Source of the DNA: Hemiscyllium ocellatum
Lineage: Eukaryota
NCBI RefSeq assembly: GCF_020745735.1
Contig: NC_083419.1
Span: 76,868,738-76,932,737, forward strand
DNA: 64,000 nucleotides
Reading direction: 5' to 3'
The notes beneath the pieces are model-generated. The model was not told the DNA's origin. It made no database searches and saw only the letters and a program-made list of their open reading frames with translations. Positions 28,984 to 60,049 of this stretch are shown in pieces. Both the position numbers and the translations under genes were made by a program. Every line of letters starts with the position of its first letter. Position 1 is the stretch's first letter.

Positions 28984-29032
28984 ATGATTGTGTCGACTAT
29001 TTTTCTCAGTTTGTTACTGACTTTCTCATCAT
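28984..29032 (+). CDS. IGHV: IgH leader exon (MIVSTIFLSLLLTFSS, phase 1)
   Basis: Hydrophobic signal peptide with donor T|GTGAGT; splices in frame to [11 protein letters not shown]. Confidence 0.92.
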
Positions 29033-29161
29033 GTGAGTGTTTTTTTGGTTCAAGTCTCTCTTTGGTTCTGTCTCAACGTTAGTCTACCGCAGGAATGTAA
29101 AATACACAACCATCATTTCATCTGCATTAATGCTCAAGGTTTATTTGTTTTCTTTTTAAAG

Positions 29162-29518
29162 GTGTCCAGTCGGAGGTTGTTTTGACTCAGCCAGATGCAG
29201 AGACTGGCCGTCCCACAAGCAGTCTGAAACGGACCTGTAAAACTAGTGGGTTCGATCTTAGCAGCTACAACATGTACTGGGTCCGACAAATTCCCGGACA
29301 GGGTCTGGAGTGGCTGGTACGCTACTATAGTCCATCCAGCAATAACTATGCACCAGCGATTAAGGGTCGATTTACTGCATCCAAAAACACTTCAAACAAC
29401 ATTTTCGCTTTGCACATGGGGAGCCTGAAGGTCGAAGACACCGCCATCTATTACTGTGCAAGTGGTTATAGCTGGAGTGAGTACTGGGGCCAAGGGACCA
29501 TGGTGTCAGTGACTTCAG
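29162..29518 (+). CDS. IGHV: Pre-joined VH-D-JH exon of a shark IgM heavy chain
   Basis: Acceptor TTTTTAAAG|; EVVLTQP...TC...[14 protein letters not shown]...[27 protein letters not shown] in one frame; donor G|GTAAG; no RSS between V and J. Confidence 0.96.
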
Positions 29519-29551
29519 GTAAGAACTTTGAACTTTCGTAGTGACTTTTTA

Positions 29552-29922
29552 AGATTAGATTAGATTACTTACAGTATGGAAACAGGCCCTTCGGCCCAAC
29601 AAGTTCACACCGACCCGCCGAAGCGCAACCCACCCATAACCCTACATGTACCCCCTACCTAACACTACGGGCAATTTAGCATGGCCAATTCACCTGACCC
29701 GCACATCTTTGGACTGTGGGAGGAAACCGGAGCACCCGGAGGAAACCCACGCAGACACGGGGAGAACGTGCAAACTCCACACAGTCAGTCGCCTATTTAG
29801 TAGTCAGAGAGCATTAGCTTTTGGATTGCAGGCCTGTTAGAACATAACAACATCCAAACATGAGAACCCGGGTTTCAGGCGCTGTAAGGCAGCAGTGCTA
29901 ACCACTGTGCCACCGTGCCGCC
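29552..29922 (-). mobile_element. HE1-type SINE variant, full length, with a 71-nt insert replacing part of the B-box region
   Basis: SINE 3' and 5' halves flank the insert at 29795-29865. Confidence 0.9.
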
Positions 29923-30389
29923 TACCAAGAACTTTCTTTTCATGTGACTATTTTCTGAATTAAATGAAACTCTGAGTCTGTGCTGAGTTTGGTTTGGTTC
30001 GGATTGATTATAGACTTCAGTTAAGGCTCAGCAAATAGTTAAAATGGTGATGATGGAGTCAATTGCTCTTTGGATCTCTTTTATTTTTATAAGATCGGCA
30101 TTCTGTGTGGCTGGGTTACTTGAAATACCTAATGTCTCTTAATCAGTCAGCTAAAAATAATGTTTAATGTCAGTGACACCCTGACTGTGAGTTTTATTAT
30201 CAACAACAAACGCTAAGCATTTAACGATGTTCAAAATATTACCAAACATGATTAAAATATGCTAAAATATCATTATTCATTTCTTGAATATATGTTCTTA
30301 CCATGATTATGCTTTCTCAATTATTTTGCTAATTTTGTTAACGGCAATCAGCTTACAAACTATCATAACATTTTCTCGCGGTGTTATAC

Positions 30390-30660
30390 TTCATTCTGTT
30401 GATTAGATTCTGAGTTTATTTTACTTGATTTGGTTGAACTGTGTTGATTGGATTTTGGCTTTGTTTTTAGTTGGTTTTGTTGAATTGTGTTGATTGACTT
30501 TTGAAATTGTTTTATTTGATTCTGTTGAAATGAACTGTTTGGATTCTTAGTATGTTTCATTTAAATCTGTTGTTTTGAGTTGATTGGATTCTGATTTTAT
30601 TTTCCTTGATTCTGTTGAATTGACTTGATTGGATTCGTATTCAGTTTGTGAAATTGATCT
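30390..30660. repeat. Degenerate T-rich minisatellite, 45-bp period, about 6 copies, in the J-C intron
   Basis: GTTG(AA) anchor at 30433, 30479, 30524, 30569 and 30614. Confidence 0.8.
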
Positions 30661-32154
30661 GCGTTTTCATTCGTTCTGTGTTTAATTTCTGTTGAGGAGA
30701 TTGTCTCTCTGGATTACTTTTCATTACCAACATTTGTGAAGTTCTTTTGTTTTTCATGAATCATTTCTGCATTAGTTAAACTTATATGACATATTTTACT
30801 CTGCTTGATTGAAAACATTATATCAGTTTGTATCGGTTGAAAATCAACTTTAGGCAGAAACGGGGATGTGTGAGAAATGAAGAAAAAAACGAGTTTTTAA
30901 TGCATTGACTTTTTTTTTAGAAATCTCAGGTCTAATTGTAAACTAACTGAATTTTGCTTTGAATAGCATCATTCAAAATAAAATTTGGGACTAAAATCTT
31001 AAACTGCAGAATTGATCAGATTACGTGGTTGAAACTAACTTAAAATTATAATGTGGTAATATTTGTCCATTCAGCAATTTTGTTTTGACCATGAAGTGAT
31101 TAATCAATATATGCCTCCAACCGCTCTACTGTGTTTTGCACAAGATTGTCGTGATCAAGAAGGTTGTGCAGGTTGAAAATAAATTGAATTGTTGCCAGAA
31201 ACGTTACAGCTTTAATGTTAAGTCCCCTCACAACAAGGGTGCTGTTATGACTTGTTATTTCTATTCAATTTAATCATTGGTTTGCTTGATTCTGAGCAGC
31301 TTTGTTAGACTTCAATTTGTTTTTTTTTGTGAGGTTACATCATGTTCTTGATTCTGTTGAAAATGTTTGCAGAGCTAGTTCTGCTGCAAACACATCGTGC
31401 TGTGATTTGTTGAGGAGGGATTGTGCTTGGGTAACATTAAATGTGTTATATTTGGGAAACCGTTTCTGGTTTCTACATTGTTTTTGCAATGTTAACATGG
31501 TTGGTGACGGTGAACCGCTCCAGGTTCCTCATTTCATGCAATCAGCATGCGAGTTGAAGTTTCATAAAGCCTATTATTAAGTGAAAGGCAAATCGCAATG
31601 GTTTTAAAAATTAAGGGAAAACATACCTTCTGGCGCCATTTTTAATTAAAAGAAATAATCAAGTATTAATGTAATCCATGCTTTATAATCCAAATTCAGA
31701 ACTCAACTTCTAGTTCAATCACAAGGTCTGTCTTTGAACGGTTTACAAGTCATAAAGAAATATTATGTTCCAATAATCCTTGCTCTTGAGCAAAAACGCC
31801 ATGACTGTGTTATAATTGATCAAGAAACACATTTCAATTCTGCTGTAGACTGCATACATATTTGCCTGGCTGGAAAAGATCATGAGCAAAGACCATTTGG
31901 AAATTTTGCTAAATTCTTTGAAGAGCAGATCAGTTTCACTGCTTGATCAGTTTAACAAATAACTTTAGTTAATTAATTGTTATGTCCCTGATTTAACTGG
32001 ATTTTCAGGATAGAAATACAACATTAACTTAATTATTTCATCTGCACAGTGTTTTAGGTGTTCCCAATCTGTGCATTTTAAATAAATCGTTACATTTTAC
32101 AACAAAATATCAACTGAAGAATCTGCTCACATCAGTTAAGTGTGACAATCATTT

Positions 32155-32445
32155 AGATTAGATTTCGTGCAGTATGCATCGGGCCATTTGACCCAACAAG
32201 TCCACAACGAACCTCTAAAGAGTTGCCCACCCAGATCCATTCTTCTACCCTAAATTTACCCCTGACTAATTCACCTAACACTATGCACAATATAGCATGA
32301 CCAGTTCAGCTGACATGTACATCTTTGAATTGTGGGAGAAAACCCACACAGACACAGGGGAGAATGTGTGAACTCCACACAGGCAGTCACTCGAGGCTGG
32401 AACCGAGCCTGGGTACGTGTTTCTGTGAGGCAGCAGTGTCCACAT
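32155..32445 (-). mobile_element. Older diverged HE1-like SINE
   Basis: TTAGATTAGA tail, CCCAACAAGTCCAC, GGGAGAATGTGTGAACTCCACAC. Confidence 0.75.
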
Positions 32446-35400
32446 TTACTTAGACATTCGTTAAAGCGGGCAACTCCAGACAGAAGCATGTTTTCAATTC
32501 ATAACTTTTTAAACATTTTTGAACATCAAAAACACTTAACAAGAAAGTGAACTTGCTGCTTTTCACACTGGAATCCAGTATTGACTTTATGCAATGCATG
32601 CAAAATCTCCACAGTTTAAGAAATGTTTTAAGAATATGTAAAAATAATTTAGAGAATAATCCATTTCCTCCGGATCTATGCTTTAATTGGCGATATTTCC
32701 TACCTCACTAATTTTGTTAAATATAATGACTTAGGAAGTTTATTATCTCAGTGGCTAGTTATGTTCATTGTAGACACATTCTTTTCACATTAATCTATTG
32801 GTTAGTTCCTCTGATGAATGTTCAATTACAGTGAATTTATTTTCCGTGAGAAATTGAGCAATGTATCTACTAGGATTAAGCCTGCTGTGCAGTTTGTTTC
32901 AGTGCTATCTCCGACCAACTTGTCAACAGTCCTGACCATTTGTAAATTGTTCAGTTCGTATACCTAAATCTCAGGCAGTTTAATTTCATCTCGCACTTCA
33001 AATCCACTTTTATCCGGCAGAAATGCAATATTCGAATGGGTGCTTCAGAATTGAGAGCCCTGACCATGTTGTTCTAATCCGAATGAACATTTCAGGAACA
33101 AAAGGGAGATCGCAAGAGTTTTGAAATTGGTTGTTGGCATCAAGAGATATTTGATTGAGCGAGGCAGTGGGAAATATGCTGCATATTTTCTTTGTGCCTC
33201 AGTTGTGCAGGACATGTTTAGTGGCACAATGCAGAAACTGAATTTTTTTTGCATCTTATTATTTGAAAACATATCATCAGCTTTTAATGTCACTGGCAAC
33301 AGTCATATTACAGTTCAAAACATTTTAATCTTTTTCTAAGTAGACCATCTGGTGCAGCAACATTCACAGGGGAAAGTGGAAGGGAGTTCTAGGGTGAAAT
33401 CCAGTGACAGTGAATTAATGGCAATGCAATTCCAGTTTTATTTCTGTGTAGTTCCCATAGAGTTTGAACAATTCGGAGCTGCTGTCAAAGTATTCTTGGA
33501 TAAATGTTGAAATGTTACTTTCATCGTGCAAACATTCTGGAACAATCCCTGGTTGTTGGAAGGTGTTAATAACTAACAAAGTTTATGCACTGTCAAACAG
33601 GTTGGCTGTGTTCTCCGTGACACTGTCGAGCTCTTTGTGTTTAGGTCTGTTGTGATGTTGTAGTAGGGTCCCTGTTTCTGTGCCAGGTTTCCTGTGTTCA
33701 CTTACAACCTGTTAGAGAGGTATGTAACAACATCTCTTATCAGATTGCTTCAGTGCAAGAAAGCAGATTGAGATGTTTGGGTTTGTTGGAATTCCACTCA
33801 CAGAGCCAGTGAAATCTATTCAATCGCTGTCCTGACTTGTGTCTCTTAGATATTAAACAGAATTTTGGTGGTTAGCAGCTTTTTCCAGATCAATGTTTGT
33901 TCACAAGCTTTTGGGCATCGCTAGATGGGGTTAATGGAGTAAGTACTCAAAGAAATCCCAGCTTTTGACTTGCTTTTCTAACAATATCATTTATAACTAA
34001 CCCAGAATGAATCATGTTCGAAGCATATTTGATGTGATTATGCTTAGGCTGTTTTACTTTATAGTAAACCAGTGCTGTAGCTAAATTTGATTGTTCAGTA
34101 CGGTGGGGGTTCCGCTGAACCCAACATTTGCAGCAGATGGTGATAGCCTTTCAATTGGTTTTCAATTAGTATTTCAGACCGTCCAGTATCTCTGCTAAGA
34201 ATCCTTTGTCCAACAGGAGTCAAGCAAACGTTATCGCTGTTTATCTCAACAGGTGTGAGCTCTTGCGCCAAAAACATGAAAACAATTTGGTGAAGAGGGG
34301 AGTCTCTGGATACGAAAGGTTAACCTTGCTTTCTCTCCACAGGAGCAGCCAGACCTGCTGAGTTTCTTCAGAAATTTCTGTCTTTATTTTGGTTTTCTAG
34401 CATTTAAATTGTGTTGTTTCATTGAAAAAGTTATGTTCGATTAAATACATTCTTCAGAGCAAAGATGCATTTGAACAAATTGGGAATGTTCAGAGAAATT
34501 AAATATCAGAGAATCGTTGAATTTGAGCGCCCTGATCTCGAGCTGTAGTTTCACAAGAAACTATTATGAAGTAACAACACATTCCAGAGTGCAATGTGTG
34601 AGGTAATTGTTTGGAAGTTATTTTGATCACTCATATAGAGAATGTTAATGATCCACTTCCAAATAATCAACAGAATTGTTAAAAAAACATGCGAAACAAT
34701 TAATTTGTTGAACTATTTTAATATAAAGTGATCACTGTCAACGCTAGCTTAATGCATGACACAATGATACGAAGGTAGGAGCAGGAGGTCTGCACTCAGT
34801 CCCTCGAGCTGTTCCACCACTTACTTAGATCATGGTGCATTTGTGAGCCAAATCCACAGGCCTCCCTTTGGCTAAACACTTTAACACCAATGATTATCAA
34901 GCCAAAAAACTATCCCAGATTTACTGATTCGACTGCTCATAACAAAGGGAGACACTATTTCTGAAAGACGTTTCTCTGAGTATTTAAAGTGACACAATGA
35001 GGCTGGAATTAATTGCCCATGAAAGTCAGCGTTAAATCTCTGAAAATTTCCAATTGAAACATTCCAATTATCATATTACATTAATTTAACACTATACTTC
35101 CCTGGAATAATGAAATATAATGTGTGATTGCCTTTCTAGAAAGGAGGGAAGCTTCATTCCTATTATATGATTAAGAAATAGTTCTGTTCATTCAGTGAAA
35201 ACACAGTCAAATCACACAAAAAGAAACCATGTCATCTTGTGTTGACACACAAGTGCCTCAAATGATTTTCAATTCTTCCAGTGGTTGTTTGACTCTCTAG
35301 ACAGGTGGAAGTGTCAGACTTTTTATATTGCCTTGAGAAACCAGTTGTCATCAGTTTATTTGAATTGCTGAAGTTTGTGTGGTCTTAGCACATTCACAAC

Positions 35401-35949
35401 GTTGTTAGGAAGTGAGTCCCATGGCTGTGATCGAGGAAGATGAAACGGCCAGAGAAATAGTTGAGAGTCAAGTTGAAGTCTTATTTGGAGGAAAGCTTTC
35501 AGGAGAAGCATTTACATGCATGCCCACCCTTATCATCAAGAATCTCAGTTTTGGAACATGCTGCCAAAGGGACATGTCAGCATGCAAAATGGAAGCTGAC
35601 GAAGGCAACTCGGCCCCTCAGGAATGGTATTCCATTCACAGGATCATCGTTAATCTTGCTGCTCACCAGTCTTCGCAATACACCGATAACATTGAACCTG
35701 ATTGTTTACTCTTCAAGAAAAGAATGGTGAACCTTTGGAATTCTCCGCCACAGGAATTGATTGAGGTCAAAGCATTGAATGATTTCAATAAGAAGGTAGA
35801 TTCCTTCAATCCTCAAAAAAAAATGCTACGGATGTGTGGGAGAAAGGCAATCAAGCTGCAATATTGGATGAAAGCCATGAAAACATTGAATGTGGCCTGG
35901 TTTGTAAGTTTCCACGTAACGCCAAAATTGGTGGTATAATTGGCAGTGA

Positions 35950-36540
35950 AAGTTTTCTAAACGTACAATGTGATCTTGATCAGCTGGGCCAATGGGCTGA
36001 GGAGTGGTAGATGGAGTTTAATTTAAATGAATACGACGTGTTGCTTTTTGAGAAGACAAATCAGGTCACAACTTACAGAGTTAATGACAGGGTACTGGGA
36101 AGTGATGTTAAATACAGGGCTCTGAGGGTTCAGACTCATAGAGTCTTACAGAGTTAATGGTAGGGCAGTGGGTGGTGATGTTGAACACAGGGCCCTGAGG
36201 AATCAGACTCATAGATTCTTGAAAGCGTTGTCTCAAGTAGCTAGCGTGTTGAAGGTGTTTGGCACTTGTACTTTCATTGTTGAGAGCATTGAGTGCAGGA
36301 GTTGGGGATTCATGTTGTAACTGTACAAAATATTGGACTGAACTGCCAGAGGACGTGGTAAATGCAGAGATAGGTACAACATTTAGAAGACACTTGAACA
36401 GCTACAGGAACTGGATAGGTCTAGATGGATATGGGCCAAAGTCAGGCAAGTGGAATGAGTGTAATTTGGGAACTCTGGTCAGCATGGATGAACTGGACCA
36501 AAAGAACTGTTTCGGTGCTATATGATTTTATGACTCACTG
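35950..36540 (+). mobile_element. Old CR1 3' fragment
   Basis: Degenerate RT C-terminus and 3' UTR (ATGGGCCAAA...GGACCAAAAG). Confidence 0.7.
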
Positions 36541-36630
36541 ATTTTATGGTAGAGTAGGCTCAAAGTTGGAAGGTGTGGTGAGCAAGTGAGGGGCTAGATT
36601 GGGAATGTGGGAGAGTTTGGTTTGGTAGGC

Positions 36631-36930
36631 TGTGGCACAGTGGTTAGCACTGCTGCCTCACAGCGCCTGAGACCCGGGTTCAATTCCCGACTCAGGCGAC
36701 TGACTGTGTGGAGTTTGCACCTTCTCCCCGTGTCTGCGTGGGTTTCCTCCGGGTGCTCCGGTTTCCTCCCACAGTCCAAAGATGTGCAGGTCAGGTGAAT
36801 TGGCCATGCTAAATTGCCCGTAGTGTTAGGTAAGGGGTAATGTAGGGGTATGGGAGGGTTGCGCTTCGGCGGGTCGGTGTGGACTTGTTGGGCTGAAGGG
36901 CCTGTTTCCACATTGTAAGTAATCTAATCT
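36631..36930 (+). mobile_element. HE1-type SINE, near full length
   Basis: A box, B box GGGTTCAATTCCC, (AATCT)n tail. Confidence 0.92.
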
Positions 36931-37449
36931 GTGAGGTGTTGGGTGGGTGCTCGGTAAGTTTGCATGCACCCTGTTTGGCAAGGTGGCATCAAGGTAAATT
37001 ACAATGGTCACTGAATAATTTGGTAGAATTGTGCTTGGTAGGTTAAGGGTAGTTTGATCTGAAATGTAGGAGGTCTGTCTTTGCCAGGTTGGTTTTTGGA
37101 GAGATCAGCGGGGTACCAGGCTGCTTTGTGGAGAGGTGGGCAGAGTGCAAATGCAAAGCTCGGAGTCTGGTAGATTGTAAAACACAGATGCGAAAGGAGC
37201 TGGGATGCAATATGCACAGGTTGACTTGGCAAGATGAGAGATCAGTGACCAAGGGCTGAGGTCATGCCTCGGATAGTGGGCTTCTGTCAGAGGTTGTGAA
37301 AATTACGGTGCCAGGTCCAGTCAGGGCCAGATTCACCATGGGCCAGATGCAGGGTGACAGGAGTGGAAATGAGTGAAAGGAATTGAGATCTTATGTCCAT
37401 CTGGAATATAGAAGATTGCATTGCAGTGCCCTTCAGCTGTAGATGTTGC

Positions 37450-38830
37450 GCCGACCTGTGGAAGCAATATGAAGCCTATCTATCCTCCACTATTCCATTT
37501 TTATCCAATGACCTTTTAAATGCTATTAAATTGGCGAGTGTGCTATTGTTCCAGGCGGTGCGTTCCATGCCCCTACTACTCTCTGAGTAAAGAAGCAACC
37601 TCTGACATCTGTCCCCTATCTATCAGCCCTCAATTTAAAGCTATGTCCTCTCCTGCTAGCCATCACCATCCAAGGAAAATATCTTTCACTGTCCCCCTTT
37701 GTTTATTTTTATGTCTCAATTAAGTCACTTCTCAACCTTCTTCTCTCAAACAAAAACAGCCTCAAGACCCTCATCCTTTCCTCCTAAAACCTTCCCGCCA
37801 TACCAAGCAACGCCTTGGTAAACCTCCTCTGAACTCTTCCAAAGCTTCCACATTCTTCCGATAATGCGGTGACCAGAATATTTCACAATACTCCAAGTGC
37901 GGCCACACCAGAGTTTTGTACAGCTGCAGCCTAACCTCGCGGTTCTGAAACACAGTCCCTCTATCGATGAAAGCAACCACAAAGTATGCCTTCTTGACAA
38001 CCCTATCAACCTGGCTGGCAACTGTTATGGATCTATGTACATGGACACCGAGATCTCTCTGCTCAGCTACACTACCAATATGGATTGCCTTGGATGCGTG
38101 TCTTGTGATAGAGGTTGTGTGGTCCGGGCATGAAAGGTGTGTAGCAGGGTAGGGTTTGTCAATGTGAGTGGAAAGTTTTGTCTAGACAGAGTAAGTGCAG
38201 TGGTTAGTCTGAGAGATGAACTGCGTGACAGTTTGATAGTTATTAAAGTTAATAGTTACTTTTTCATTTCTCAGATCATGTTTATGGAAATACTCAGCTG
38301 TAACACTGCAAAGTCTCTGAACCTTAATAGTCCTCCATTTTTTTCAGAGGCCTCCAGCATTCAGATAATTGTAAATCAGAAGTTTTAACTTCCAGGCAAT
38401 TGGCATGAGTTCAACTTTGACTGCCATCCTCCCAGTCCCAGTGCTCAGCTCCTGCCTGTGCTGCTGCTGCAGTGACCTTCCACCCAAAGAGAACATTCTG
38501 CCTTGCACTGATAAGTGAGGAAGGCTCACTGGACCTGATTTCGAAGTATGGGGACGGCAAACACAAGTAGACACAACTTTATAGTGAAGGGAGATAGGTA
38601 TAAGTCAGAGGTATTTACTTTACTCATTGAGTCGTAAGGGTGTGGAGTGCTTTGCCTGCAATGGTAGTAGTTTCGCCAAGTTAAAGTGCATTGAAGTCGT
38701 CATTGGACAGGCATATGGACGTACAGGGAATAGTGTAGGAGGAATGGGCTTCAGATTCGTATGAGAGGGCAGGGTAACATCGAGGCCCAAAGGGCCTGTA
38801 CTGCGCTGTAATGTTCTATATTCTATGTCC
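37450..38830. mobile_element. CR1 fragments (minus 37450-38075; plus 3' end about 38570-38830)
   Basis: LQLYKTLVWPHLEYC (minus); tail GGGCCTGTACTGCGCTGTAATGTTCTATATTCTATG (plus). Confidence 0.8.
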
Positions 38831-38899
38831 TGTGATTCACTCTGATTTCTCTCCGTGGATACTGCCAGCTGTTGCGTATTTCGAGCAGCACGGTACCGA

Positions 38900-39566: not shown

Positions 39567-39872
39567 AGATACCTTCTCCCCCCACGCTGTATGGTCTGGT
39601 CACCTCCTGTCAGAAGCACAACACCGGTTCCGTGATCTTTGGTTGTTTGGTGATGGACTATTCCCGTGACGTCACCAATGTAACCTGGAAGAAAGGTGGG
39701 GAGCTAATCACGACTGGATTGAAGACTTATTCATCAGTGAGAAACAAGAACGGAACCTACACCCTGAGCAGCCAGTTAACCGTGCCCAACTCAGCGGTAG
39801 ATTGCCCCAGCAAAATCTACTGTGAGGTTCAACACAGCGGGTCACACAAAAGCAAAGAAATGCCATGTCAAG
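39567..39872 (+). CDS. IGHM: IgM CH1 exon
   Basis: TAG acceptor, phase 1; [15 protein letters not shown]...FGCLVMDY...TW...IYCEVQH...MPCQ; donor G|GTAAGT. The Cys in TSC is the position expected to bind light chain. Confidence 0.95.
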
Positions 39873-39959
39873 GTAAGTGTTGTGGGAAATGAGATAAACA
39901 GAGCATCTGGGACTAACATGAATGAAGCATTATTTATAACGATTTTCACTGAATCACCT

Positions 39960-44603: not shown

Positions 44604-44915
44604 GTCCAGATATTCTCCAACCAACTCTTCTCCTTACTGTGAGCTCCAGTGAAGAAATCGCAAACAGCAAGTTTGCAACCGCTGTCTGTTCAATCATCGA
44701 TTTCCATCCGAAGTCAATCTCCATGATCTGGTTGAAAAATGGCCGACCCTTGGATTCTGGCTTCTTCACGTCTCCCGTGTGTGAGGCAAACGGGAATTTC
44801 TCGGTGACGAGTCGGCTGATGGTCCCTTATGGTGAATGGTTCAACAGCGCAGTCTATACCTGTCAGGTCACTCATGGAGAGAACATTCAAAGTAAAAATA
44901 TTACCTCACTCCAGG
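44604..44915 (+). CDS. IGHM: IgM CH2 exon
   Basis: AAG acceptor, phase 1; [18 protein letters not shown]...[10 protein letters not shown]...WLKNG...YTCQVTH...; donor G|GTAAG. Confidence 0.95.
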
Positions 44916-47008: not shown

Positions 47009-47314
47009 ATACCGAGTGCCACGCTAACACCGTTAAAATCCTCCCACCACCAGTAGAACAAGTCTTACTGGAGGGGACGTTGACGTTAACCTGCGTTTTG
47101 TCCAATCTTCCTTCTGGAGTCAACGTTACCTGGACACAGGAAAAGAAGCCTCTGAAATCAGAGATTGCTGACCAGCCTGGACAGAATCCCGAAAGCCTGA
47201 TCAGCAAATTGGACATTTCTACTGAAGTCTGGCTGAGTGGTGTTACTTTTGAATGTGTGGTGTACTATCAGAATCTATCGACTTCGCTGAGAGACTCCAT
47301 CCACAAGGAGAAAG
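47009..47314 (+). CDS. IGHM: IgM CH3 exon
   Basis: AAG acceptor; [29 protein letters not shown]...[10 protein letters not shown]...FECVV...SIHKEK; donor G|GTGAGC. Confidence 0.95.
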
Positions 47315-47767: not shown

Positions 47768-48159
47768 TGATTAATCTGCTGGAGCCATCAGTGTCGGTCC
47801 TCCTGCCACTAACAAAAGAAATCCCCGCTCAGACGTTTCAATCCCTCACCTGTTTAGTGAGAGGTTTCTCCCCCCAAGTGATCTTCGTCAAGTGGACAAG
47901 CAATGACAAGCCAGTGAATCCCAGTAACTACAAGAACACCGAGGTGATGGCAGAGAGTGACAACATCTCCTTCTTCATGTACAGCCTGTTATCCATTACA
48001 GCGGAGGAGTGGGCCAGTGGTGCTTCTTACTCCTGTGTGGTGGGACATGAGGCAATTCCATTGAAGATCATCAACAGAACAGTCGATAACTCCAGCGGTA
48101 AACCGAGTTTCGTAAACATTTCAATTGCATTGATGGACACTGTTAATTCATGTCAATAA
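47768..48159 (+). CDS. IGHM: IgM CH4 exon plus secretory tailpiece
   Basis: CAG acceptor; [10 protein letters not shown]...WTSND...[25 protein letters not shown]; tail [20 protein letters not shown] with sequon and penultimate Cys; internal donor G|GTAAAC at 48097/48098 for the membrane form. Confidence 0.97.
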
Positions 48160-48160: not shown

Positions 48161-48839
48161 AATCTCAAAGTTGCATTTAATAATTCAACAGAAATAATAA
48201 CGTTTTTATTTCCTCAAGTTGCGAGCTAAATACTGAATTAGTTGTTACTCACTCTGGCTTACATTCCATCTGTGCAGTTAAAGTGGATTATTAACAGGTC
48301 CAAGACGAGTGCCTTGTGTAGTTAATGTTTTCTGCTCAGATACACCCTGAGTCAGAGACAACGTAAAGCTCACTCATTGCAGGATTCCACCAAGTACCTT
48401 AGCCATCCTAAATCCCTCTGTGACAAAATCTGAGAATGTCCATTTTATATCAAGGGTATGGCACCAGTTTTGAACTTGGTGTTCTTGATTCCCCCGATTG
48501 GACATTCTTACAAAATTCATGTCAGTTTTAAACTGCCACTTTGCACCAATTGGAAATGTAAATTTAAGAAACGTTAAAATTAAACTTGATTGGAACATAA
48601 CAATCGTAAAGAGTGCAGAGCAATTTGAATGTAACCTTTGTTTCTGGGGAACTGCGAGGGATCTTGCGCCAGCGCATGAGTTGACAGAATGTATCTTCAC
48701 TTTCACACTGAAGAGAATCGATAGATGAGTTGTTGTGGAGCAGAAGTGAGAGGGACGATGAATGGTCTGTCCTCTTGCTCCCTGTGCAGAGTTTTCATGC
48801 TAGATGTCCTCTGTAATGTAATCCAGTTGCTAACAGGAA

Positions 48840-49539: not shown

Positions 49540-50700
49540 AATTGCAGTCTGGTAAAAGAGCAGAAACATACATAGAGAGATTATCACAAATACACACGCA
49601 AAGACACATATACAGACTCTCACCTAAAGACAACTATTTACGTGCACACTCAAATATCCATATAGATAAGACGTCATACACGCATACATGCACGGAGCCA
49701 CACGTGCAAGTGATTTTTGAACACTCACCTAAGCTCTTAAAAAAACTCACATACACCGAAAGAAAAGCATTTGCACTAATGAACAGGGGTACTCTCACAT
49801 AACCATGAGAAACATAGAAACACGCTAACACACAAATGGACATGAATACATATACAAAAATACAGCATAATACATACAGACATACACACATGAACATACA
49901 GATACAAATTCCGAAAAATGTCCTCCCACATGTCGACTCACACAGGCACATAATTGCACAGAGATAAACATTAATATCATTATTTTCCCAATTTCAGTAT
50001 CACAAACATACGATGACAGAGGCATCTTAATTGGGTATTTTAAAACCACATTGATCAGCATGTATACAATGTCACACAGACACACAATTTCAGAGTCCCA
50101 CATGCAGTCACACAAGTGCATAAATCAAAAAATAGAGGGGCGTTTATTAAATAAGGATAATATGCACAAGCATCAGCAAGCATGCACAATTACACAAACA
50201 AGCTTATCAGGAGATGGTTTGGGAAGGATTGGCACAAAAGCAGACATCATCATATAAATATAAACATCCATCAAAACATGACTTTGAATGCTAACATTTA
50301 ATAAGCATAAACATGAAAATAACCTAGTGTAGGTAGGATCTGAAACAGACACATGAGCACTCATTTTAGATAGCACAATTGAAAAGTGAACACTCACAAA
50401 GACATTCCAAGATAAGCATAGTCATCAACGATGTAACATATTAGCATGATGATGGTTACACAATGTGAAAAGATCAAAATTTACGTACACAACCATATGA
50501 GCACACCAGCAGTAAAGGAACTGTGCACGAATGTGTTTGTTCGTGCACTGACTCCGACATGGGCAAGAGTGAAGCATGAGACTCTCATAACCACATACAC
50601 AAACATTAAAGGAACACCAAACACACCAAGCAGTGGATCAAATAAATTAAGGGACACATGTACAAAAACTTATTCCTAAATATACAGATCCTACAAATAA
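49540..50700. repeat. About 1.2 kb of CA-rich cryptic low-complexity sequence
   Basis: Dense ACAC/ACAT/CACA motifs; explains the Cys/Val-rich minus-strand ORFs. Confidence 0.75.
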
Positions 50701-51097
50701 AAATACGAAGCAATGTCCTGACTGTGATGTCAATTCTATTCATGAGTTGCCAAGCAAATAGTCATCAATACGTAAAGATGAGAATCACATTTGAAGTTTT
50801 ATTCAGTGATGGCCACACTTTTCAACTAAACTGCTGTCACAGCCTATATTTAAAATATAATGATATAATTAAATAATCATTTGTAATAAGCATCCCACAA
50901 ATAATAATATCTTCCAATGATAGATTACAAAAAATATAAATATTCTGACATGGACAATGAAGAAATAACGGGTTCAGTTACTGTTTGTAATTTCTTGCTG
51001 AGACTCAACAATGCACTAATAGTTGCAGATAAGAGTCACACTTGGGAAATACCTGACTGCTTTATGAAGATGTAATGATCTCTAATTGCACGACTTG

Positions 51098-51716
51098 CAT
51101 GGGAGGTGGGGAGATGTGTTGTTTTCGCAGGTGTAGCGAGAAGGTAGGTGGTGATGGTGGGCTTGAGTGTGGTGCTGGTGGGTCGGGAGGGGGATTAAAT
51201 CAGCAAGCACTAGGGAAATGTATAATTGGGTACTAACTTTAGTGCATAATTATTCTAGTAAATAATTTAGTCTCAGCAAAACAGCTGGGATAGCTGAAAC
51301 ACACGAACTAGGCAACTAAAGACACATTGTTAAAATGTATATTCAGGAATGGAATATACCTGTGAACAATGGAAGATTTTACAAGCAAACAGATAAAGTG
51401 ATAGGAACATCAAGATCCAAGTTTAGCAAAATCTTCCTAATGTCAGCACTTACAGATGGAAGGGTCGCCAACTTGGAGAAGGGGGGAAATAATAAGAGCG
51501 GATCGCAAGTTAGTCATAGAATAAAGTTGATTGGGAAATGTAGGAGTCAGAAGTGGTGACCTCATGCAGCTCAAAAGTATAACTGTGTACTAGTTTGAAT
51601 ATTCATTGCTCATTTGCTTCTGCATTTGATGTCTTTTCTTGCAAGATCATAAAATAAATTGTCTTGTTTCCAGTTTTGGTGGTCTCGTCTAAATTTTATT
51701 AAATTTGTTTCTAACA
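51098..51716 (+). repeat. ERV 5' LTR (619 bp)
   Basis: Aligns with 59071-59701; ends TTTCTAACA; AATAAA at about 51520 and 51653. Confidence 0.92.
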
Positions 51717-51720
51717 GATT

Positions 51721-51739
51721 TGGAGGCTCATCCCGGGAA
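51721..51739 (+). promoter_or_regulatory. Primer-binding site, tRNA-Pro-like
   Basis: TGGAGGCTCATCCCGGGAA versus the canonical Pro PBS TGGGGGCTCGTCCGGGAT, 4 nt after the LTR end. Confidence 0.75.
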
Positions 51740-51980
51740 TGCAAGCTCCAGTCGCTCGGCATTTTTGAGAAAACGGAGAAGGTGCACCTCGCTGATTTCG
51801 GCGGTCTCTAGTGCCCCTCCTTGCCGCAAGCGGCCTGTGCGAGCGTGATCGGGACTGAGAGACCCTGGAAAAAAGACAGGAAGACGCGGCGGTTTCGGTC
51901 AGGTGACTCTTGTGTGCACAAGATCCTGGGAAGAAAAGTCTTAAAAAATTTATCCAGGCGACCGGGGGAGGCAGCGGTAT

Positions 51981-52400
51981 TTGCTGCCAGTTGGATATAT
52001 CCGGGGATCCGGGGAACCGGGGTTCCGGTCGACGGGTGTTGGTTCTGTAATTGCTGCCAGTTGGATACATCCGGGAGTCTGGCAGCAGTATTTGCTGCCA
52101 GGTGGATGTATCCACGTATCTGGGCGACCGGAGTAGGTAGCGGTAGTTGCTGCCAGTTGGATAAATCTGGGTGACCGACATTGGTAGTTGCTGCCTGGTG
52201 GATATATCTGGGGATCCGTGGAACCGGGGTTCTGGGCGACAAGGTTGGGCGAATCCGGTCGAACAGTGTATGTAGTAGGAATTGCTGCCAGTTGGATTTA
52301 TCCGGGGATCTGGGGTTCTGGGGTTCTGGGCGACCAAGTTAGGTAAATCCGGTCGACCAGGGTAGGTAGCGGTAGTTGCTGCCAGTTGGATATATCCGGA
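51981..52400 (+). repeat. Seven-copy tandem repeat array in the ERV 5' leader
   Basis: Core TTGCTGCC(A/T)G(T/G)TGGAT at 51981, 52051, 52092, 52147, 52188, 52282 and 52376, with variable spacers. Confidence 0.9.
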
Positions 52401-52728
52401 TTTGCCGCAGGACGGGGCACGCTGAAACGACCAGGTAACTCTGTGCACAGACCATGGTTAAGAAAATGGACCTTTAACTATTCCCTTGGTGGTCGGAGAA
52501 GTACGAGAAGTACGGGAAATTGACAACATTTAAAATAAAATATTTAATTAGATAGATTAATTTGATGAGTAAGGTGTCTACGTGATTCGACCATGCAGCC
52601 TTAGACTGGTTGTTAAGAGGGGAAAACCCCCATGCGAAGATCAGTACACTGAAGTGGGCGTGGAAGAAGGTGACACCGGTCCTCAGTAAGGTTAATTAAA
52701 TTACATAAAGAAACGGCCGAGTGTTCAA

Positions 52729-54231
52729 ATGGGAAATAAGAATAGTCGTTTGTGTCGAAGGGGACATGAGAGGGACGTCTGAGGACCATATCCCAACACA
52801 CAGTCCTAAAGAAAAAATGTTAAGAGATTGGAAGTACAATCCTCGGATGCGAGGAAATGATAATAAAAACAAATGATAAAAAATTGTTGTTTCATCTGGA
52901 CAAAGGAAAGCATTAAACCTCCAAGTGTTTTTTTGGTCTAAATATGGGTCAGATGAAGATTGGCTATGTCAAGAGTTAAATATATATGTAAATAAGAAAC
53001 AACGATACTCCCGGAAAGAATCTGACTATATCACCTGTTGGATAGGAAGTCCGAAAATCTTTGTCTTGAAAAAGTCAAAGACAGAAGAAGGTGATGAGAA
53101 ACCAAAGGTTTCCCGTTGGGATCCTCTGTCAATTTTACCTCCCTCTTACGACAAAGACAATAATGGTCCGTCGTCGTCGTCGTCCCCCTCTCCCACAGCG
53201 CCCCCTCTCCAGTGCAATAAACTGAAAAGAGTCAAGAGAGAAACTTCCCCGTGAGTCCAATTAAAACTAGATCAACAGTGAAAAGGAGGGAGGAGTGGGA
53301 CATAGGCGGGGCAGCAACACATATATTACCTTAGGGAAGTACCTGTCGGTAACGGCGAAATCGGATATGTTAATGCACCACTGACTAGTAGTGAATTTAG
53401 AACCCTTAAAAAAGAAATGAAAAGTTTGATTGAGGACCCCGTACAATTGGCAGAACAGTTGGATCAACTTTTGGGGCCGAATTTGTATACATAGCGTGAA
53501 CTGATGAGCATTCTAGGGACGCTATTTTCAGGAGAAGAGAGGGGTATGATTAGAAGAGCTGCTCTAAAGGAATGGGAAAAGAGACATCCAGAGGGTAGGG
53601 GAGTAATACCAGCCGAAAACAAATTTCCCAATGTGGACCCTCATTGGAAGGGCATGGATGAACGCAAAAGGGGAGAAATTATAGACTTTCGAGAAATGGT
53701 CATTTGGGTATTAAAGAAGCAGCACCTCGATCTCAGAATTTTGTGAAAGTCTTTGAATTGAGACAGGAGAAAGATGAAACCCCGTCGGCATTCTTCCAGA
53801 GACTAAAAGAGGCTGCTAGAAAATATTTGTAAATGGATCCCAATGATCCGGTAGCTCAGGAAATTTTAAAGGTCCAGTTTGTGAGTAAATCATGGCCGGA
53901 CATACAAATGAAGTTACAGAAAATAAAAGGATGGAGTGAAAGACAGATGGGAGAAGTGTTACATGTGCACAGAAAGTGTATGTGAAAAGAGAAGACGAGA
54001 AACAAAAACAGAAAGCTAAAATAATGGTCGCAGCGGTTGAGGAAATTACGAAGAGAAGGTTAGAACCAAAAAACAACGGGAGGACAAGAGAGAAAGAGCG
54101 TAGATTGTAGAGAAAGAAGGCAACAGGCAGGATGTCATTACTGCTGAAAAGTAGGGCATTTTAAAAGGCAATGTCCAATGCTAGAACAATAAAGACAGGC
54201 AGTTTCATTGATGACGTTTGATGAAGAATAG
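52729..54231 (+). pseudogene. gag: ERV gag (frameshifts and stops)
   Basis: MGNKNS myristoylation-type start, FW.KYGSDEDWLC, MHR-like RQEKDETPSAFFQRLKE, CHYC*KVGHFKRQC zinc knuckle (54133-54174), TAG at 54229-54231. Confidence 0.9.
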
Positions 54232-57200
54232 GGGAGTCAGGGGTTCCTCCTCCATTGGGAATCCTTGATAAATTTAAAATGGGACCCGAAGGAGAAGAGG
54301 CAGTATTCTTGGTGGATACGGGAGCAGCACGGTAATCCCTAAGTTTTAGACGTAGCAGAGTTTAAATTGACTAACAAGGGTCTTAGGATTTCTGGAGTAA
54401 AAGGTGAAAAATTCTTAGTGCCCATTTTCAAGCCGACTGTAATAAAGGAAATAGCAAAGAAGTGAACGGACAATTATTATATATTCCTAACATTGAAAGC
54501 AATCTTTTGGGTAGAGATTTGATAATTTTGTTAAATTTAAAGATTGAAGTGGAGAATACTTCAGTAGCTCTGATGATCAATAAATTAACGATTAGTGACG
54601 AAGAACAGATAAATCCCAACGTGTGGGCAAGAGCTGGGAACTCAGGTTATTTGAACATTGATCCGATCGTAATTACACTCTCCCAAGAGAATTAAGACAG
54701 TAAGATTAAAACAGTATCCGGTTTCATTAGAGGGATGCAAGGGTCGACAACAAGTAATAGATTCTCTAGTTAAAGAAGGACTATTAGAACCATGCATGTC
54801 ACCCTTTAATACCCGAATACTACCCATCCGGAAACCAGATGGAACTTACCGACTGGTACAAGATCTCAGATCAGTGAACCGACTGGTCCTTACATGGCAC
54901 CCGGTGGTACCCAATCCATACACGCTTTTGAGTAAGATACTGTGTGATCATCGCTGGTTTAGTATAATGGATTTAAAAAGATGCATTCTTGGCTTGTCCT
55001 TTAGCCCCAGAAAGCCGCGACATGTTCGCTTTTGAGTGGGAAAACACATACACTGGCAGAAAACAACAGTTCCAATGGACAGTACTTTCCCAGGGATTCA
55101 CAATTTCACCTAATTTATTCGGACAAGTACTGGAACTAGTCCTGGAACAATGTAAAATGCCACAAGAGACGTCACTGTTGCAATATGTGGACGATCTACT
55201 TGTATCAGGACGAAAGATAAATTATGTAAGTTGGGCCACGAATGGACTGTTAAATTTCCTAGGGCAGCAGGGTTTAAGAGTATCTAGGAATAAATTGCAA
55301 TATGTCGAGAAAGAGGTGAAACTGACAGGGTCCGAATACTAAAGTCTGCATTGGACAGAAGAGGAGAAGGAAGTGTTACACGAGTTGAAGCGTAGTCTAA
55401 TACAAGCTCCAGTATTGGCCCTGCCGAGAGAAATCATTTCTCCTTTTTGTGACAGTAAATGATGGAGCAGCTTTAGGAGTGTTAACACAGAAAAGAAGGG
55501 GAAGGAGGTATCCCATAGCTTTCCTGTCTAAGATCTTGGACCCTGTCTCGAGGGAATCGCGTGAATGTATACAGGCAGTAGCAGCAACTGTCATATTGGT
55601 AGGGGAAAGTCGAAAACTTACTTTTGGAGTGGTGCTCGTCGTTAGAACCCCCCATCGAGTCAGAACTGTGTTAAAACAAAAGGCAGGGAGGTGGTTGACA
55701 GATTCTCGAATTTTAAAATACGAGGCCATCCTGATGGAGACAGATGACCTTGCATTAGCAACAGACACCTGTCTAAACCCAGCTACCTTCCTATGGAAGG
55801 GAGAACCTCTGGACAAACCAGAATTAGAACATAACTGGTTAGATATCATCGAGTATAAAACCAAAGTTACACAGGAACGAAGAGATATCCCCTTACATGG
55901 GGGACAGATTGTTTATAGATGGGTCATCGAGAGTAGTGGAAGGAAAAAGACACAATGGATATGCAGTAGTAGACGGTAATGAGAACCGAACAGTGGAAGC
56001 TGACCGGCTGCCTAACACATGGTCGGCCCAGACTTGTGAACTATACACTTTAAACCAAGCTTTAAAATACTTAGAGAATCGAGATGGAACAATTTACACC
56101 GACTCTAAATACGCTAACAGGGTAGTGCATACTTTCGGAAAGATATGGCAAGAACGAGGACTAATCAATAGTCAGGGGAAGGAATTAGTACACGAAGAGT
56201 TGATAGGACAAGTATTGAAAAGTTTGTAATTGCCCAGAGAAATAGCTGTCGACCATCTACACGGACATCAGAAAGGGAACATTCTAGAAGCAAGGGGAAA
56301 CAGACTATCAGACGAGACAGCCAAAGAGGCAGCTATGAACCATACAGCAACAAGGATACAGATTCTTACACCCCTAGTCGACTCTTCTTCTGTGATCCCT
56401 GTGTACACAGAAGAAGAGAAAAAAAGAATTCCAAGAAATAGGAGCCACTAAGACAAAGGAAGGTGGATCCTCCCGGATGGGAGGGAATTGTCGAGTAAAC
56501 CATTCATGAGAAACATCTTAGCCACTTTACGCCAGAGAAGTCATTGGGGCTCCCAAGCTATTATGTGACATAGTATTAAGGAAATATGGATGTTATGGAA
56601 TATATACGTTGACAAAACAGATATGTGAAAGGTGTGCAACTTGTCAGAAGATCAATAAGAAAGTAACAAGGGAAGGGCCAAAAGGAGGGAGAAACCCAGG
56701 GCGAGACCCTTCCAAAGTAGACAGATGGATTAGACTGAACAACCCCCAGCTGGAAAACAGAAGTACCTGTTTTTCCTCGTAGACCAGCTAATCAGGTGGG
56801 TGGAAGCTATCCCAATATCATTGGCCACCTCAAAAAGGGGTGGCAAAAACCTTCCTTGAACATATCATCCCACGATATGGAATCGTGGAAAGTATAGATT
56901 CAGACCAAGGTAGCCATTTTACTTCCAAGATCCGACAAGAAGTAATGGCAGGATTAGAGATCTCTTGGGAATTCCACACACCTTAGCACCCACCTTCCTC
57001 TGGACAGGCGGAACGAATGAATCAGACCTTAAAGAAACAATTATACAAGCTAGTCCGAGAGACTCAATTACCATGGACCAAAAATTTGCCTATTTCGCTA
57101 TTACGCGTTCGGAGTGCCCCAAGGCGAGTTATCGGCCTTTCTCTCATTAAATGATATTTGGGCTACCATTCCTGGGAGGGAAAAGGGGACGTGCCTACAG

Positions 57201-57538
57201 CTGAGTTTAATGACAAGTTTTTGAAAAATTATATTGTGGCACTTGGCTATTCATTATTTATTCTTAGGAATAAAGGCCTGTAGGTACAGACACCGCCACT
57301 TGAGTTTGCAGCACATCGCATACAGCCGGGTGATTGCGTCCTGATCAAGACCTGGAAAGATACTAAACTGCACCTGAGCTGGGAGGGACCATTCCTTACC
57401 CCCCTGACTACTGAGACAGCTGTCCAGACTGCTGAGAAAGGGTGGAGTCATCACACTCGCGTTCAAGTTCCTGTGTACGCCCCATCAGCGGAGTGGCAAG
57501 CTCATCCTCCAGACAACCCTCTGAAAGATAAGCTGTGA
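54232..57538 (+). pseudogene. pol: ERV pro-pol (protease, RT, RNaseH, integrase), disrupted, with an apparent deletion after the RT core
   Basis: LVDTGA (54315-54323), PILPIRKPDGTYRLVQDLR-type motif, SQGFTISP, QYVDDLL (55184-55195), LFIDGSS, IYTDSKYA, HLHGHQKG, SIDSDQGSHFTS. Confidence 0.93.
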
Positions 57539-57546
57539 AAAAAGGA

Positions 57547-58943
57547 ATGAACTAAGACAAAAGACTTTTTTTAACGCTCGATTGTTATTGATTGTGAAGG
57601 CTGCTTGGACTCACCACTCCCTGGCACCTAAAAGATTAAGACAGGTAGAGAGATGGGCAGGTACTGGTATAGTATTATAACATAAGTAGCATTAATTGTT
57701 CAAGGAGGAGGGAAAAATCACTTCACTTCACTATGCCAAGATTATGCTGAACAAAAAGGACTTGCCGACTGTTCGGTCTGAGCAGAGGCCCCACAACATA
57801 GCGAATCTGGGATCCCCATCTCGGTAATACCGCTCACCAAGAAGTGTACGATATACAACAATTTGACTCGGACGCAAATGATACAATGTGGAGTTTTGAC
57901 AGGGGTGAATATAACTTTGCGGGATGGTTCCTTAGACCAGCCCCGAAAAATCCAGGATGCTATCGATGGCGTTAGAGTTTCCCCACCGAAAGGAGCAGTA
58001 AATGCCACCTGTTTCTGTAATCAGAATGACGCCGCACCCTTCCAATTAGGAAAATCATCTTGTGTCTACACCAGCCAAACCACTACCACGACCATTCCCC
58101 TTATATTAAACGGAAGATGTTGGGTATGCGGCCTGAAGGTCTATCTATTTACTCCCGTGGAAAAATACATTCGCGTGACCGACTGTATAGAAATGCATGC
58201 ATGATATGATGTTGATGAAACACTGCCTCAAAGCCAGTAAAGCTGGGATGGCTGCTGTTACCTCGCTTATATAGTTCCTCACCTCCGATTAGAAAAACAT
58301 GAGCACAACCTGAGAAAGGAGGGGGGAATAAGACGTAAGGCCCGAGAGGTTTCTGAAGGAGACCACCTGTTGTGGACACTACTCCCAAACTATGGCGCTG
58401 CAAGGGCAGGGGTAGAAATACAGAAACTGGCAGCTGCCCTTGAGAAGTTAATTAATGTTACTGTCGACGCAATGCGAGAAAGCCAGTCCCAAATATCGGC
58501 TATAACCATCAAAATGTTTGCTACAAGACTAACAGCTTTACAGAATCGAATGGCTTTAAACTATCACTTGGCCGAAAAAAGGGGGAAATTATGCTCTGAT
58601 TAGTAAGGAATGCTGCACCTCCATCCCAGACACCTCTTCCACAGTGGAAGGGAAGGTAGAAATAGTTAAGAAAAAAGATAAAGAATATAAGAGAAACCGA
58701 GGATGAACTTCGAAGGATGAGAGATGTGAATGGGGCGACTGGGGACTGACTGGTTGGAGATCGTGGCTAGCTAATTTACGCATTTATGTATTACTGATAA
58801 TAATATGTCTAATCATAGGATTTAACGTGTTAAAGTGGATAATGAGTAAGTTGGCAATGTCTTTAGGAGGAGGAAAACAATCAATGTTGGTCATGACAAC
58901 AGCTCGCGCACAAGAAAGCAAGAGTAGCAGATTACTCCTATAG
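57547..58943 (+). pseudogene. env: ERV env (gamma-type TM subunit), disrupted
   Basis: CWVCG motif, RRKAR furin-like site (58331-58345), LQNRMALNYHLAEK immunosuppressive-domain-like stretch, degenerate x-ALISKECC (CX6CC-like), hydrophobic anchor near 58780-58850. Confidence 0.85.
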
Positions 58944-59070
58944 TTTGAAAAAGGCAGACTTAGGAGGGCAGAAATGGCAAGATTGTGAATCTCTGCACTT
59001 TAGGGAGAAAAGAAGGCATAAAATAAAATTGCAAAAACAACAAATGGTAAAAGAAAAGAAATGACGGCGT

Positions 59071-59701
59071 TGTGGGAGGTTGGGAGGTGTGTTGTTTTCG
59101 CAGATATAACGAGGAGGTGGTGATGGTAAGCTTGAGTGTGGTGCTGGTGGGTCGGGAGTGGGGGCAGCTGCAGACAATGATAAAATGAGCAAGCACCAGA
59201 GAAATGAATAATTGGGTATTAACTTTAGTGCATAATTATTCTAGTAATAATTTAGTCTCAGCAAAATAGCCGAGATAGCTGAAACACATAAACGAGCCAA
59301 GAAAAGACACATTGTTAAAATGTATATTCAGGAATGGAATTTACCAATGAACAATGGAAGATGTTACAAGCAAACAGATAAAGTGAAAGGAACATCAAGA
59401 TCCAAGTTTAGCAAAATCTTCCTTATGTCAGCACTTATAGACTGAAGGGTCGCCAACTTGGAAAAGCGGGGAAATAATAAGAGCGGATCGCAAGTTAGTC
59501 AGAGAATAAAGTTGATTGGGTAATGTAGGAATCAGAAGGGGTGACCTCACGCAGCTCATAAGTATAACTGTATACAAGTTTGAATGTTCATTGCTCATTT
59601 GCTTCTGCATTTGATGTCTTTTCTTGCAAGATCTTAGAATCAGTTGTCTTGTTTCCAGTTTCGGTAGTCTTGTCTAAATTTTATTTAATTTGTTTCCAAC
59701 A
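59071..59701 (+). repeat. ERV 3' LTR (631 bp)
   Basis: Starts TG after the purine tract AAAAGAAAAGAAA (about 59049-59061) and ends CCAACA; homologous to the 5' LTR. Confidence 0.92.
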
Positions 59702-59772
59702 ACTTGGATGCAGACAGATCGATCTGGATCAATAAACAATCTAACTGCGTTCTCTCGGCTTTATATTCATAG

Positions 59773-59900
59773 ATTCAATAGATTGCACTTGGATTGAAGA
59801 CTGTGAGGATGATAATAGCAACATCTGGACAACTGCTTCCACGTTCATCACCTTGTTCTTCCTGAGTATGTTCTACAGTGCTGCCGTCACTCTGGCGAAG
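59773..59900 (+). CDS. IGHM: IgM transmembrane exon TM1
   Basis: Branch-point-like CTAAC (59741), TAG acceptor, phase 1 matching the CH4 internal donor; [43 protein letters not shown] with the antigen-receptor TM motif; donor AAG|GTGAGA. Confidence 0.94.
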
Positions 59901-60040
59901 GTGAGAATGATCACATCTTTCACATGCCAAACAGCCCAATATGTTTTGTGAAATCTCTAAGTGTACCATTGAATAAAAAAATAAATCTGAAAGCCCCTGA
60001 TTAAAAACAAATGTGTCAATGCTTTATCACTCTTTTCCAG

Positions 60041-60049
60041 ATTAAGTGA
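60041..60049 (+). CDS. IGHM: IgM TM2 exon (IK-stop)
   Basis: TCTTTTCCAG|ATT AAG TGA gives the short K-I-K cytoplasmic tail typical of membrane IgM. Confidence 0.85.
   Translation: MK

What the first reader, a model, noticed from the sequence alone, without database searches (positions are those of the whole stretch)
28984..60049. Candidate system: pre-rearranged IgM with intact CH1-4 and TM exons whose membrane arm is split by a sense-strand retrovirus
Seen: every exon has an open frame and canonical splice sites, the VDJ is already joined, and an 8.6-kb ERV lies between the secretory poly(A) region and TM1. Established: sharks have germline-joined Ig clusters; nurse shark IgM1gj is one, but it lacks CH2, which is present here. 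In mammalian mu genes, lengthening the secretory-to-membrane distance favours the secreted mRNA. Inference: the locus may encode a fixed-specificity, secretion-biased, innate-like IgM. Suppressing the membrane form could also keep a pre-joined gene from acting as a B-cell receptor or disturbing allelic exclusion, which might let it persist.
Basis: partly seen in the sequence, partly recalled or inferred. Interest (0 to 1): 0.85.

Follow-up and report, generated by a model that had tools for sequence, protein, structure and literature searches.

The report
Eroding pre-joined shark IgM with retrovirus
This is one of at least ten shark antibody genes in this genome whose variable region is already joined in the assembled DNA; an old, dead retrovirus sits just before its membrane-anchor exon, and although the gene still reads through it is likely decaying rather than making a dedicated secreted antibody.

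Summary
The anatomy is right: leader, in-frame joined VDJ (CDR3 ASGYSWSEY), CH1-CH4, secretory tail, TM1 and TM2 all have open frames and GT-AG sites. An 8,604-bp dead, sense-strand, MLV-like provirus (5-bp target duplication, LTRs 9% apart) ends 71 nt before TM1; 29 of 29 other TM1 loci have the empty site. The reading as a special system is weak. Pre-joining is common here (at least 10 joined VDJ), and two other in-frame joined genes are intact with membrane exons and no provirus. This copy has changed residues that other sharks keep (V-core Leu to Arg, CH1 cis-Pro to Arg) at the rate of broken copies (12:16 against 81:100; constrained copies 5:28), has mutated the conserved second secretory AATAAA, and has lost about 420 nt upstream of its TATA box. 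Against decay: no stop or frameshift, where 2-4 are expected (P about 0.02-0.12), so it probably outlived the insertion for a while and may still be weakly expressed. No RNA of this species could be tested. Verdict: new member of a known kind, most likely eroding.

The parts
28688..28855 (.). 168-nt SINE fragment standing where 16 of 16 paralogues have 346-423 nt of upstream sequence (about -548 to -128 from the ATG)
   Evidence: left junction matched without a difference by a 369-nt contig of run X1; best other copies 82-85%
28889..28896 (+). TATA-like CATATAAA, shared with the paralogues
28984..29032 (+). Leader exon
29162..29518 (+). Joined V-D1-D2-J exon, in frame, CDR3 ASGYSWSEY; Leu to Arg two residues before the first Cys (codon at 29230)
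29555..29926 (.). Young SINE inserted 36 nt after the J donor, absent from the 3 paralogues aligned
   Evidence: 95-96% to other copies in the window
39567..39872 (+). CH1; the C-x-x-x-D-Y-S-P proline is Arg (codon at 39665)
44604..44915 (+). CH2 (present, unlike IgM1gj)
47009..47314 (+). CH3; C-x-V-x-H histidine is Tyr (codon at 47266)
47768..48159 (+). CH4 with internal donor after 48097 and secretory tail ending -SCQ stop; first AATAAA overlaps the stop (48155)
48196..48201 (+). Second poly(A) hexamer, AATAAA in 26 of 27 other copies, AATAAC here
51098..51716 (+). 5' LTR with sense AATAAA at 51520 and 51653
51717..59070 (+). Internal part of a dead class-I-like provirus (RT closest to MLV among solved structures; RNase H fragments; env-like remnant near 58241-58603)
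59071..59701 (+). 3' LTR; 54 differences in 613 sites from the 5' LTR (K2P 0.094)
59773..59900 (+). TM1; four private replacements, two of them new cysteines in the spacer, no private silent change
60041..60049 (+). TM2 (Ile-Lys-stop; Val-Lys-stop in paralogues)

Best explanation
This is a dispersed shark IgM cluster whose V, D1, D2 and J are joined in frame, likely by RAG in the germline, with a dead provirus in its last large intron; the gene has likely lost most or all of its selection and is eroding, with the provirus a passenger rather than a co-opted switch. Shown: anatomy, private insertion, dead provirus, erosion counts. Inferred order: the copy split from its relatives, the provirus inserted early (about 0.047 of the 0.057 substitutions per site on this branch ago), the membrane arm drifted from about then, the secreted arm stayed under some selection for part of the time, and constraint lapsed over roughly the last third to half of the branch. 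If transcribed today, the RNA would probably end at the stop-overlapping AATAAA or in the 5' LTR, and the heavy chain would probably fold poorly and be held in the ER.
For: Private replacements at positions invariant in 7 heavy chains of other species versus private silent changes: 12:16 here, 81:100 pooled over 8 broken copies (P=1.0), 5:28 in two constrained-looking copies (P=0.023). With the smaller set: 16 of 29.2 expected under neutrality (0.55, CI 0.31-0.89); broken copies 0.69 and 0.49, constrained copy 0.15. Overall 48 replacement and 22 silent changes, omega 0.79-0.87, not different from neutral by the silent yardstick (P=0.60). 37 of 47 private residues are absent from every outgroup aligned. 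The lost CH1 proline is the position of IgG P151, whose loss leaves CH1 largely unfolded and BiP-bound unless a fitting light chain forces folding (PMC13558067, passages). Second AATAAA mutated; upstream deletion. Joined, intact, provirus-free genes exist.
Against: No stop, frameshift or splice break: 9.6-11.6 expected if neutral over the whole branch; from the ratio in 10 other drifting copies (29 nulls per 94 invariant-site changes) 2.2-3.7 expected, P(0)=0.02-0.12. At face value a model that spares missense but removes nulls fits 12-67 times better than a dead gene, before allowing for the fact that this copy was picked for being intact. Replacements in the secreted exons are below the intron rate (43 of 69.2, P=0.0005). 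The deleted upstream stretch is no more conserved than introns (0.079-0.087 against 0.061-0.079), so it may not be regulatory. One AATAAA remains at the stop, and which hexamer sharks use was not established.
Confidence: 0.62

Rival explanations
1. One reading: a living, fixed-specificity IgM made mainly in the secreted form, because the provirus lengthens the CH4-TM1 intron fourfold and its 5' LTR ends read-through transcripts; the LTR signal would also have made the host's second AATAAA dispensable.
For: Frame intact against expectation; TM exons at the neutral rate, secreted exons at 0.62 of it; sense LTR hexamers kept; tail cysteine kept; joined Ig genes are expressed early in nurse shark (PMC4279169, PMC2193156, passages).
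Against: TM versus secreted contrast not significant (P=0.40); IgM1gj, though far more diverged, keeps the V Leu, CH1 Pro and CH3 His that are lost here; C54j shows the same intact-but-eroding pattern without a provirus; the normal intron already holds several AATAAA that are read through.
Confidence: 0.2
2. Living at low level under weak selection, with the provirus simply spliced out as part of the intron, so both forms are made.
For: CH4 donor, TM1 acceptor, pyrimidine tract and TM frame intact; other copies carry 2.5-4 kb insertions in this intron, and two of them (C129p, C126b) keep near-unchanged TM1.
Against: Five replacements and no silent change in TM exons that are nearly invariant in 29 other loci, two adding cysteines to the extracellular spacer.
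Confidence: 0.14
3. The join is a somatic B-cell rearrangement or an assembly artefact.
For: No listed contig piece bridged the CDR3 in runs X1-X3 (only the longest 8 per run were listed). Somatic partial joins are known from thymocytes (PMC2435157, passages).
Against: No unjoined twin in the assembly (next V match 91%); identical junctions recur in duplicated clusters (L010/L011/L015, L016-L018, L020/L021, L007/L008, L022-L025), which somatic joining cannot give; private changes are spread evenly over 30 kb, not piled on V.
Confidence: 0.03

Closest known systems
Germline-joined (VDJ, VD-DJ, VD-J) IgM clusters of sharks and skates (PMC5192425, PMC4279169, PMC2435157; passages)
   Same: Minicluster L-V-D1-D2-J-Cmu1-4-sec-TM1-TM2 with the segments already joined in frame; many partly and fully joined sister clusters in the genome.
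   Different: Carries a private provirus before TM1; heavy erosion of conserved residues with the frame still open. No such case was found in the searched library.
Nurse shark IgM1gj (P0024)
   Same: Fully joined VDJ, secretory tail with cysteine.
   Different: CH2 is present; V 60%, CH1 57%, CH3 50% identical to IgM1gj against 67%, 67%, 69% to ordinary nurse shark mu, so not an orthologue; IgM1gj is a proven neonatal serum protein and keeps the residues lost here.
Class I (gamma/epsilon-like) endogenous retroviruses
   Same: LTR-internal-LTR, target duplication, RT fragment far closer to MLV RT (E 1e-18) than to foamy or HIV-2 RT (E 1e-4); at least 38 other LTR matches in the genome.
   Different: All genes broken; not placed in a named lineage here.
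Mammalian mu secretory/membrane choice by poly(A)-splice competition (recalled; one reference title seen)
   Same: Internal CH4 donor competing with a proximal poly(A) site, TM exons downstream.
   Different: Effect of intron length is not shown for sharks and was not tested here.

Membership tests
Shark IgM cluster | One V, two D, one J and four Cmu exons with secretory tail and TM1/TM2 | tested here: met
   CH4-tail 86% identical to nurse shark mu
Germline-joined IgH cluster | V, D and J fused, no signals between them | tested here: met
   Junction resolves into V end, D1 part (AGTGG-T, one change), D2 part (TATAGCTGG) and J part, by comparison with unjoined L019
Germline-joined IgH cluster | Join present in non-lymphoid DNA of several animals | tested here: inconclusive
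   No listed contig piece spans the CDR3; indirect evidence strong
IgM1gj | CH2 absent | tested here: not met
   CH2 at 44604-44915
IgM1gj | Orthology to the nurse shark gene | tested here: not met
   Closer to ordinary mu in V, CH1, CH3 and CH4
IgM1gj | Abundant neonatal secreted protein | not testable with these tools
   No RNA run of this species was available
Class I ERV | Paired LTRs with target-site duplication and MLV-like RT | tested here: met
Class I ERV | Placement in an RT tree among named gamma or epsilon viruses | not tested
   only a search against solved structures was run
Pseudogene | Stop, frameshift or broken splice site | tested here: not met
Pseudogene | Neutral-like change at conserved residues | tested here: met
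   12:16 against 81:100 in broken copies; only part of the branch looks neutral

The most novel reading that the evidence does not exclude
A dead provirus has turned a germline-joined four-domain IgM into a secretion-only, fixed-specificity antibody gene: its 5' LTR supplies the 3' end, the membrane exons have drifted since the insertion, and the secreted frame has been kept free of nulls for most of the time since. It would be a natural test of whether an Ig gene can be used without ever acting as a B-cell receptor.
Probability: 0.2. Interest if true: 0.65.

Novelty: new member of a known kind. Interest (0 to 1): 0.3.

Why it matters
How sharks with tens of pre-joined heavy-chain genes keep one receptor per B cell is an open question (PMC2435157 notes that joined VDJ make skate data hard to read). 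If this gene were expressed as secreted-only, it would show one way out. On present evidence it mainly illustrates the life cycle of such clusters: germline joining, dispersal, insertion of mobile elements and slow decay. The more useful result for a specialist is the census: 27 of the 30 V loci examined are partly or fully joined, and intact provirus-free joined genes (C55j, C54j) give ready controls.

Tried and rejected
Expression: the look-up of sequencing runs gave 'no RNA holder listed'; this is no evidence either way. Run X4 is spliced IgM RNA of another organism and shows paralogue-type letters at the places listed; it says nothing on this locus. Germline status from reads: no listed piece bridged the CDR3. 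Outgroup DNA to date the split between species could not be had, so no age in years is given. Branch-specific rates rest on private-variant counts, not on a codon model. Promoter loss as proof of silence: rejected as proof, since the deleted stretch is not more conserved than introns. SINE dating by best hit: only rough, 40 of 2,798 candidates scored. Orthologue with the same CDR3 in other sharks: none among 17 V-length hits or in the proteins aligned; weak negative. Insertions in the same intron of C129p, C126b, C189p and C181p have no match to this provirus. No other Ig exon in the window. Earlier findings of this scan: none. Papers sought and not held. Folding was not run: a predicted model would not show destabilisation by point changes. 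Copies dropped from counts: C8, C189b, C17u, C190j, C8b, C8c (exons missing from the stretch fetched).

Full report
Observation. The organism is therefore inferred to be a carpet shark. The provirus spans 51098-59701 with ACTTG on both sides and ends 71 nt before TM1. RT and RNase H fragments are on the + strand, RT is MLV-like, and every frame is full of stops. Its LTRs differ at 54 of 613 sites (K2P 0.094). Of the 30 TM1 loci fetched (40 of 99 candidates were scored), the 29 others all have the uninterrupted site, so the insertion is private to this copy.

The join. Compared with an unjoined cluster (L019), the junction is V end + part of D1 + part of D2 + J, with little or no added sequence. 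It occurs once in the assembly, and there is no unjoined twin (next V match 91%). Of the 30 best V loci fetched (40 of 146 candidates scored; the joined query ranks joined genes first), 8 are fully joined, 13 have two joins, 6 have one and 3 are unjoined, judged by V-to-J distance; identical junctions recur in duplicated clusters. A pattern search finds 9 full joins, a tenth turned up on C56, and a J-donor pattern gives 71 matches, some perhaps of other isotypes. Germline joining is thus the likely origin and is common here. Reads did not confirm it directly: no listed contig piece spans the CDR3.

Does persistence need loss of the membrane form? No. C55j (one of two near-identical neighbours, read in full) and C54j are joined in frame, have open CH1-CH4, intact TM exons and a normal 2.76-kb intron. 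Longer introns of 3.2-6.8 kb, from other insertions, occur in four more copies.

Selection. In a tree of 17 copies this one has the longest tip (0.062). Its private intron change is 0.057 per site (609 of 10,665); each LTR has gathered 0.047 +/- 0.006, so the provirus came early, about four-fifths of the way back. In exons it has 48 private replacements and 22 silent changes against 74.7 and 29.6 expected from its introns: fewer replacements than neutral by the intron yardstick (P=0.0006), not by the silent one (P=0.60). TM exons have 5 and 0 (5.5 and 2.1 expected), secreted exons 43 and 22 (69.2 and 27.6); the contrast is not significant (P=0.40). At positions invariant in seven heavy chains of other species, among 26 copies, it has 12 private replacements to 16 silent changes, like eight broken copies (81:100) and unlike the two that look constrained (5:28; P=0.023). 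The changes include Leu to Arg two before the first V cysteine, where solved VH domains have Leu (that this side chain is buried is established knowledge, recalled), the CH1 proline equivalent to IgG P151, and the CH3 C-x-V-x-H histidine; all outgroups, IgM1gj included, keep these. PMC13558067 (passages) reports that P151A leaves CH1 almost unfolded and BiP-bound, though it can still be secreted with an engineered matching light chain, so the change impairs but need not abolish secretion.

Non-coding damage. All 16 paralogues compared have 346-423 nt upstream of about -128 that this copy lacks; a 168-nt SINE fragment stands there, and the TATA-like box remains. A contig of run X1, which may be the source sample, matches across the left junction. 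The lost stretch is not more conserved than introns, so its role is unproven. The second AATAAA after the secretory stop is intact in 18 of 18 copies and 8 of 9 more (the exception is a broken copy), but reads AATAAC here; one AATAAA overlapping the stop remains. That AATAAC is a weak signal is recalled. Both family-conserved LTR hexamers (19 of 20 and 18 of 20 LTRs) are intact in the 5' LTR, so read-through RNA could end there.

Results against my reading. The frame has no null. Full neutrality predicts 9.6-11.6. Ten other drifting copies have 29 nulls for 94 invariant-site replacements; 8 of the 10 are broken; this predicts 2.2-3.7 here, P(0)=0.02-0.12. The best dead-gene fit puts the loss of constraint in the last 26-34% of the branch, after the insertion, and still fits 12-67 times worse than a model that spares nulls. 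I discount this because the locus was picked for being intact out of some 70, because C54j shows the same pattern without a provirus and has lost even its tail cysteine, and because of the poly(A) and folding changes.

Comparison with what is known. Partly and fully joined IgM clusters, attributed to RAG in germ cells, are described in PMC5192425, PMC4279169 and PMC6795676 (passages); PMC2193156 (passages) reports early expression of joined light-chain genes, two of six being pseudogenes; PMC2435157 (passages) covers exclusion and the lack of the octamer in shark IgH promoters. This gene is not IgM1gj (CH2 present; closer to ordinary mu). Searches found no paper on a provirus in a shark IgH cluster; the library lacks most subscription papers, and I did not read supplements (table S1 of PMC12227049, of which I saw passages, may list such loci). 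The effect of intron length on mammalian mu is recalled; PMC6973322 (passages) only cites the competition work and saw no effect of an added poly(A) signal in its own construct.

Verdict. Observation confirmed; interpretation partly supported. New member of a known kind, most likely an eroding germline-joined IgM with a passenger provirus (0.62). Interest 0.3; 0.65 if shown to be a secretion-only gene ending in the LTR (0.2).

Noticed in passing
L001-L030, L145-L153 (G000): 27 of the 30 V loci examined are partly or fully joined (VD1-D2J, VD1-D2-J, V-D1-D2J, VDD-J, VDDJ), with at least a dozen different junctions, several copied among clusters; nurse shark is reported to have no canonical joined IgM (PMC5192425).
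   Followed up: partly
G000:C55:76014691-76077905 (L007, L008, L084-L086): Two neighbouring near-identical joined IgM genes 43 kb apart with CDR3 WVYSWGAVDY; the one read in full is intact with no private change at invariant sites and normal TM exons, a better candidate for a living fixed-specificity IgM. A frameshifted sister lies on C26.
   Followed up: partly
G000:C54:73704000-73726200 (L099-L101): Second old joined IgM on the same contig, 3.2 Mb away: frame intact, 31 replacement to 6 silent private changes, tail cysteine lost, no provirus.
   Followed up: yes
L002 junction versus window 29455-29490: The out-of-frame join on C113 and the partly joined L020/L021 share the D2 end (TAGCTGGAG) with this gene, and L009/L010/L020 share its V-D1 join, which hints that full joins arise stepwise from partly joined clusters.
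   Followed up: no
window 14465-15452 and L125-L130: A LINE RT fragment in the window is 91% identical, inverted, to part of the 2.5-kb insertion in the secretory-TM1 intron of C129p and C126b.
   Followed up: partly
window 51950-52430: Degenerate tandem repeats of about 41-94 nt in the proviral leader.
   Followed up: no
window 51720-51740: Primer-binding site after the 5' LTR resembles a tRNA-Pro site (label recalled, not tested).
   Followed up: no
P0029: A database protein labelled Aeromonas veronii is 78% identical to shark IgM CH4-tail, probably host sequence in a bacterial record.
   Followed up: no
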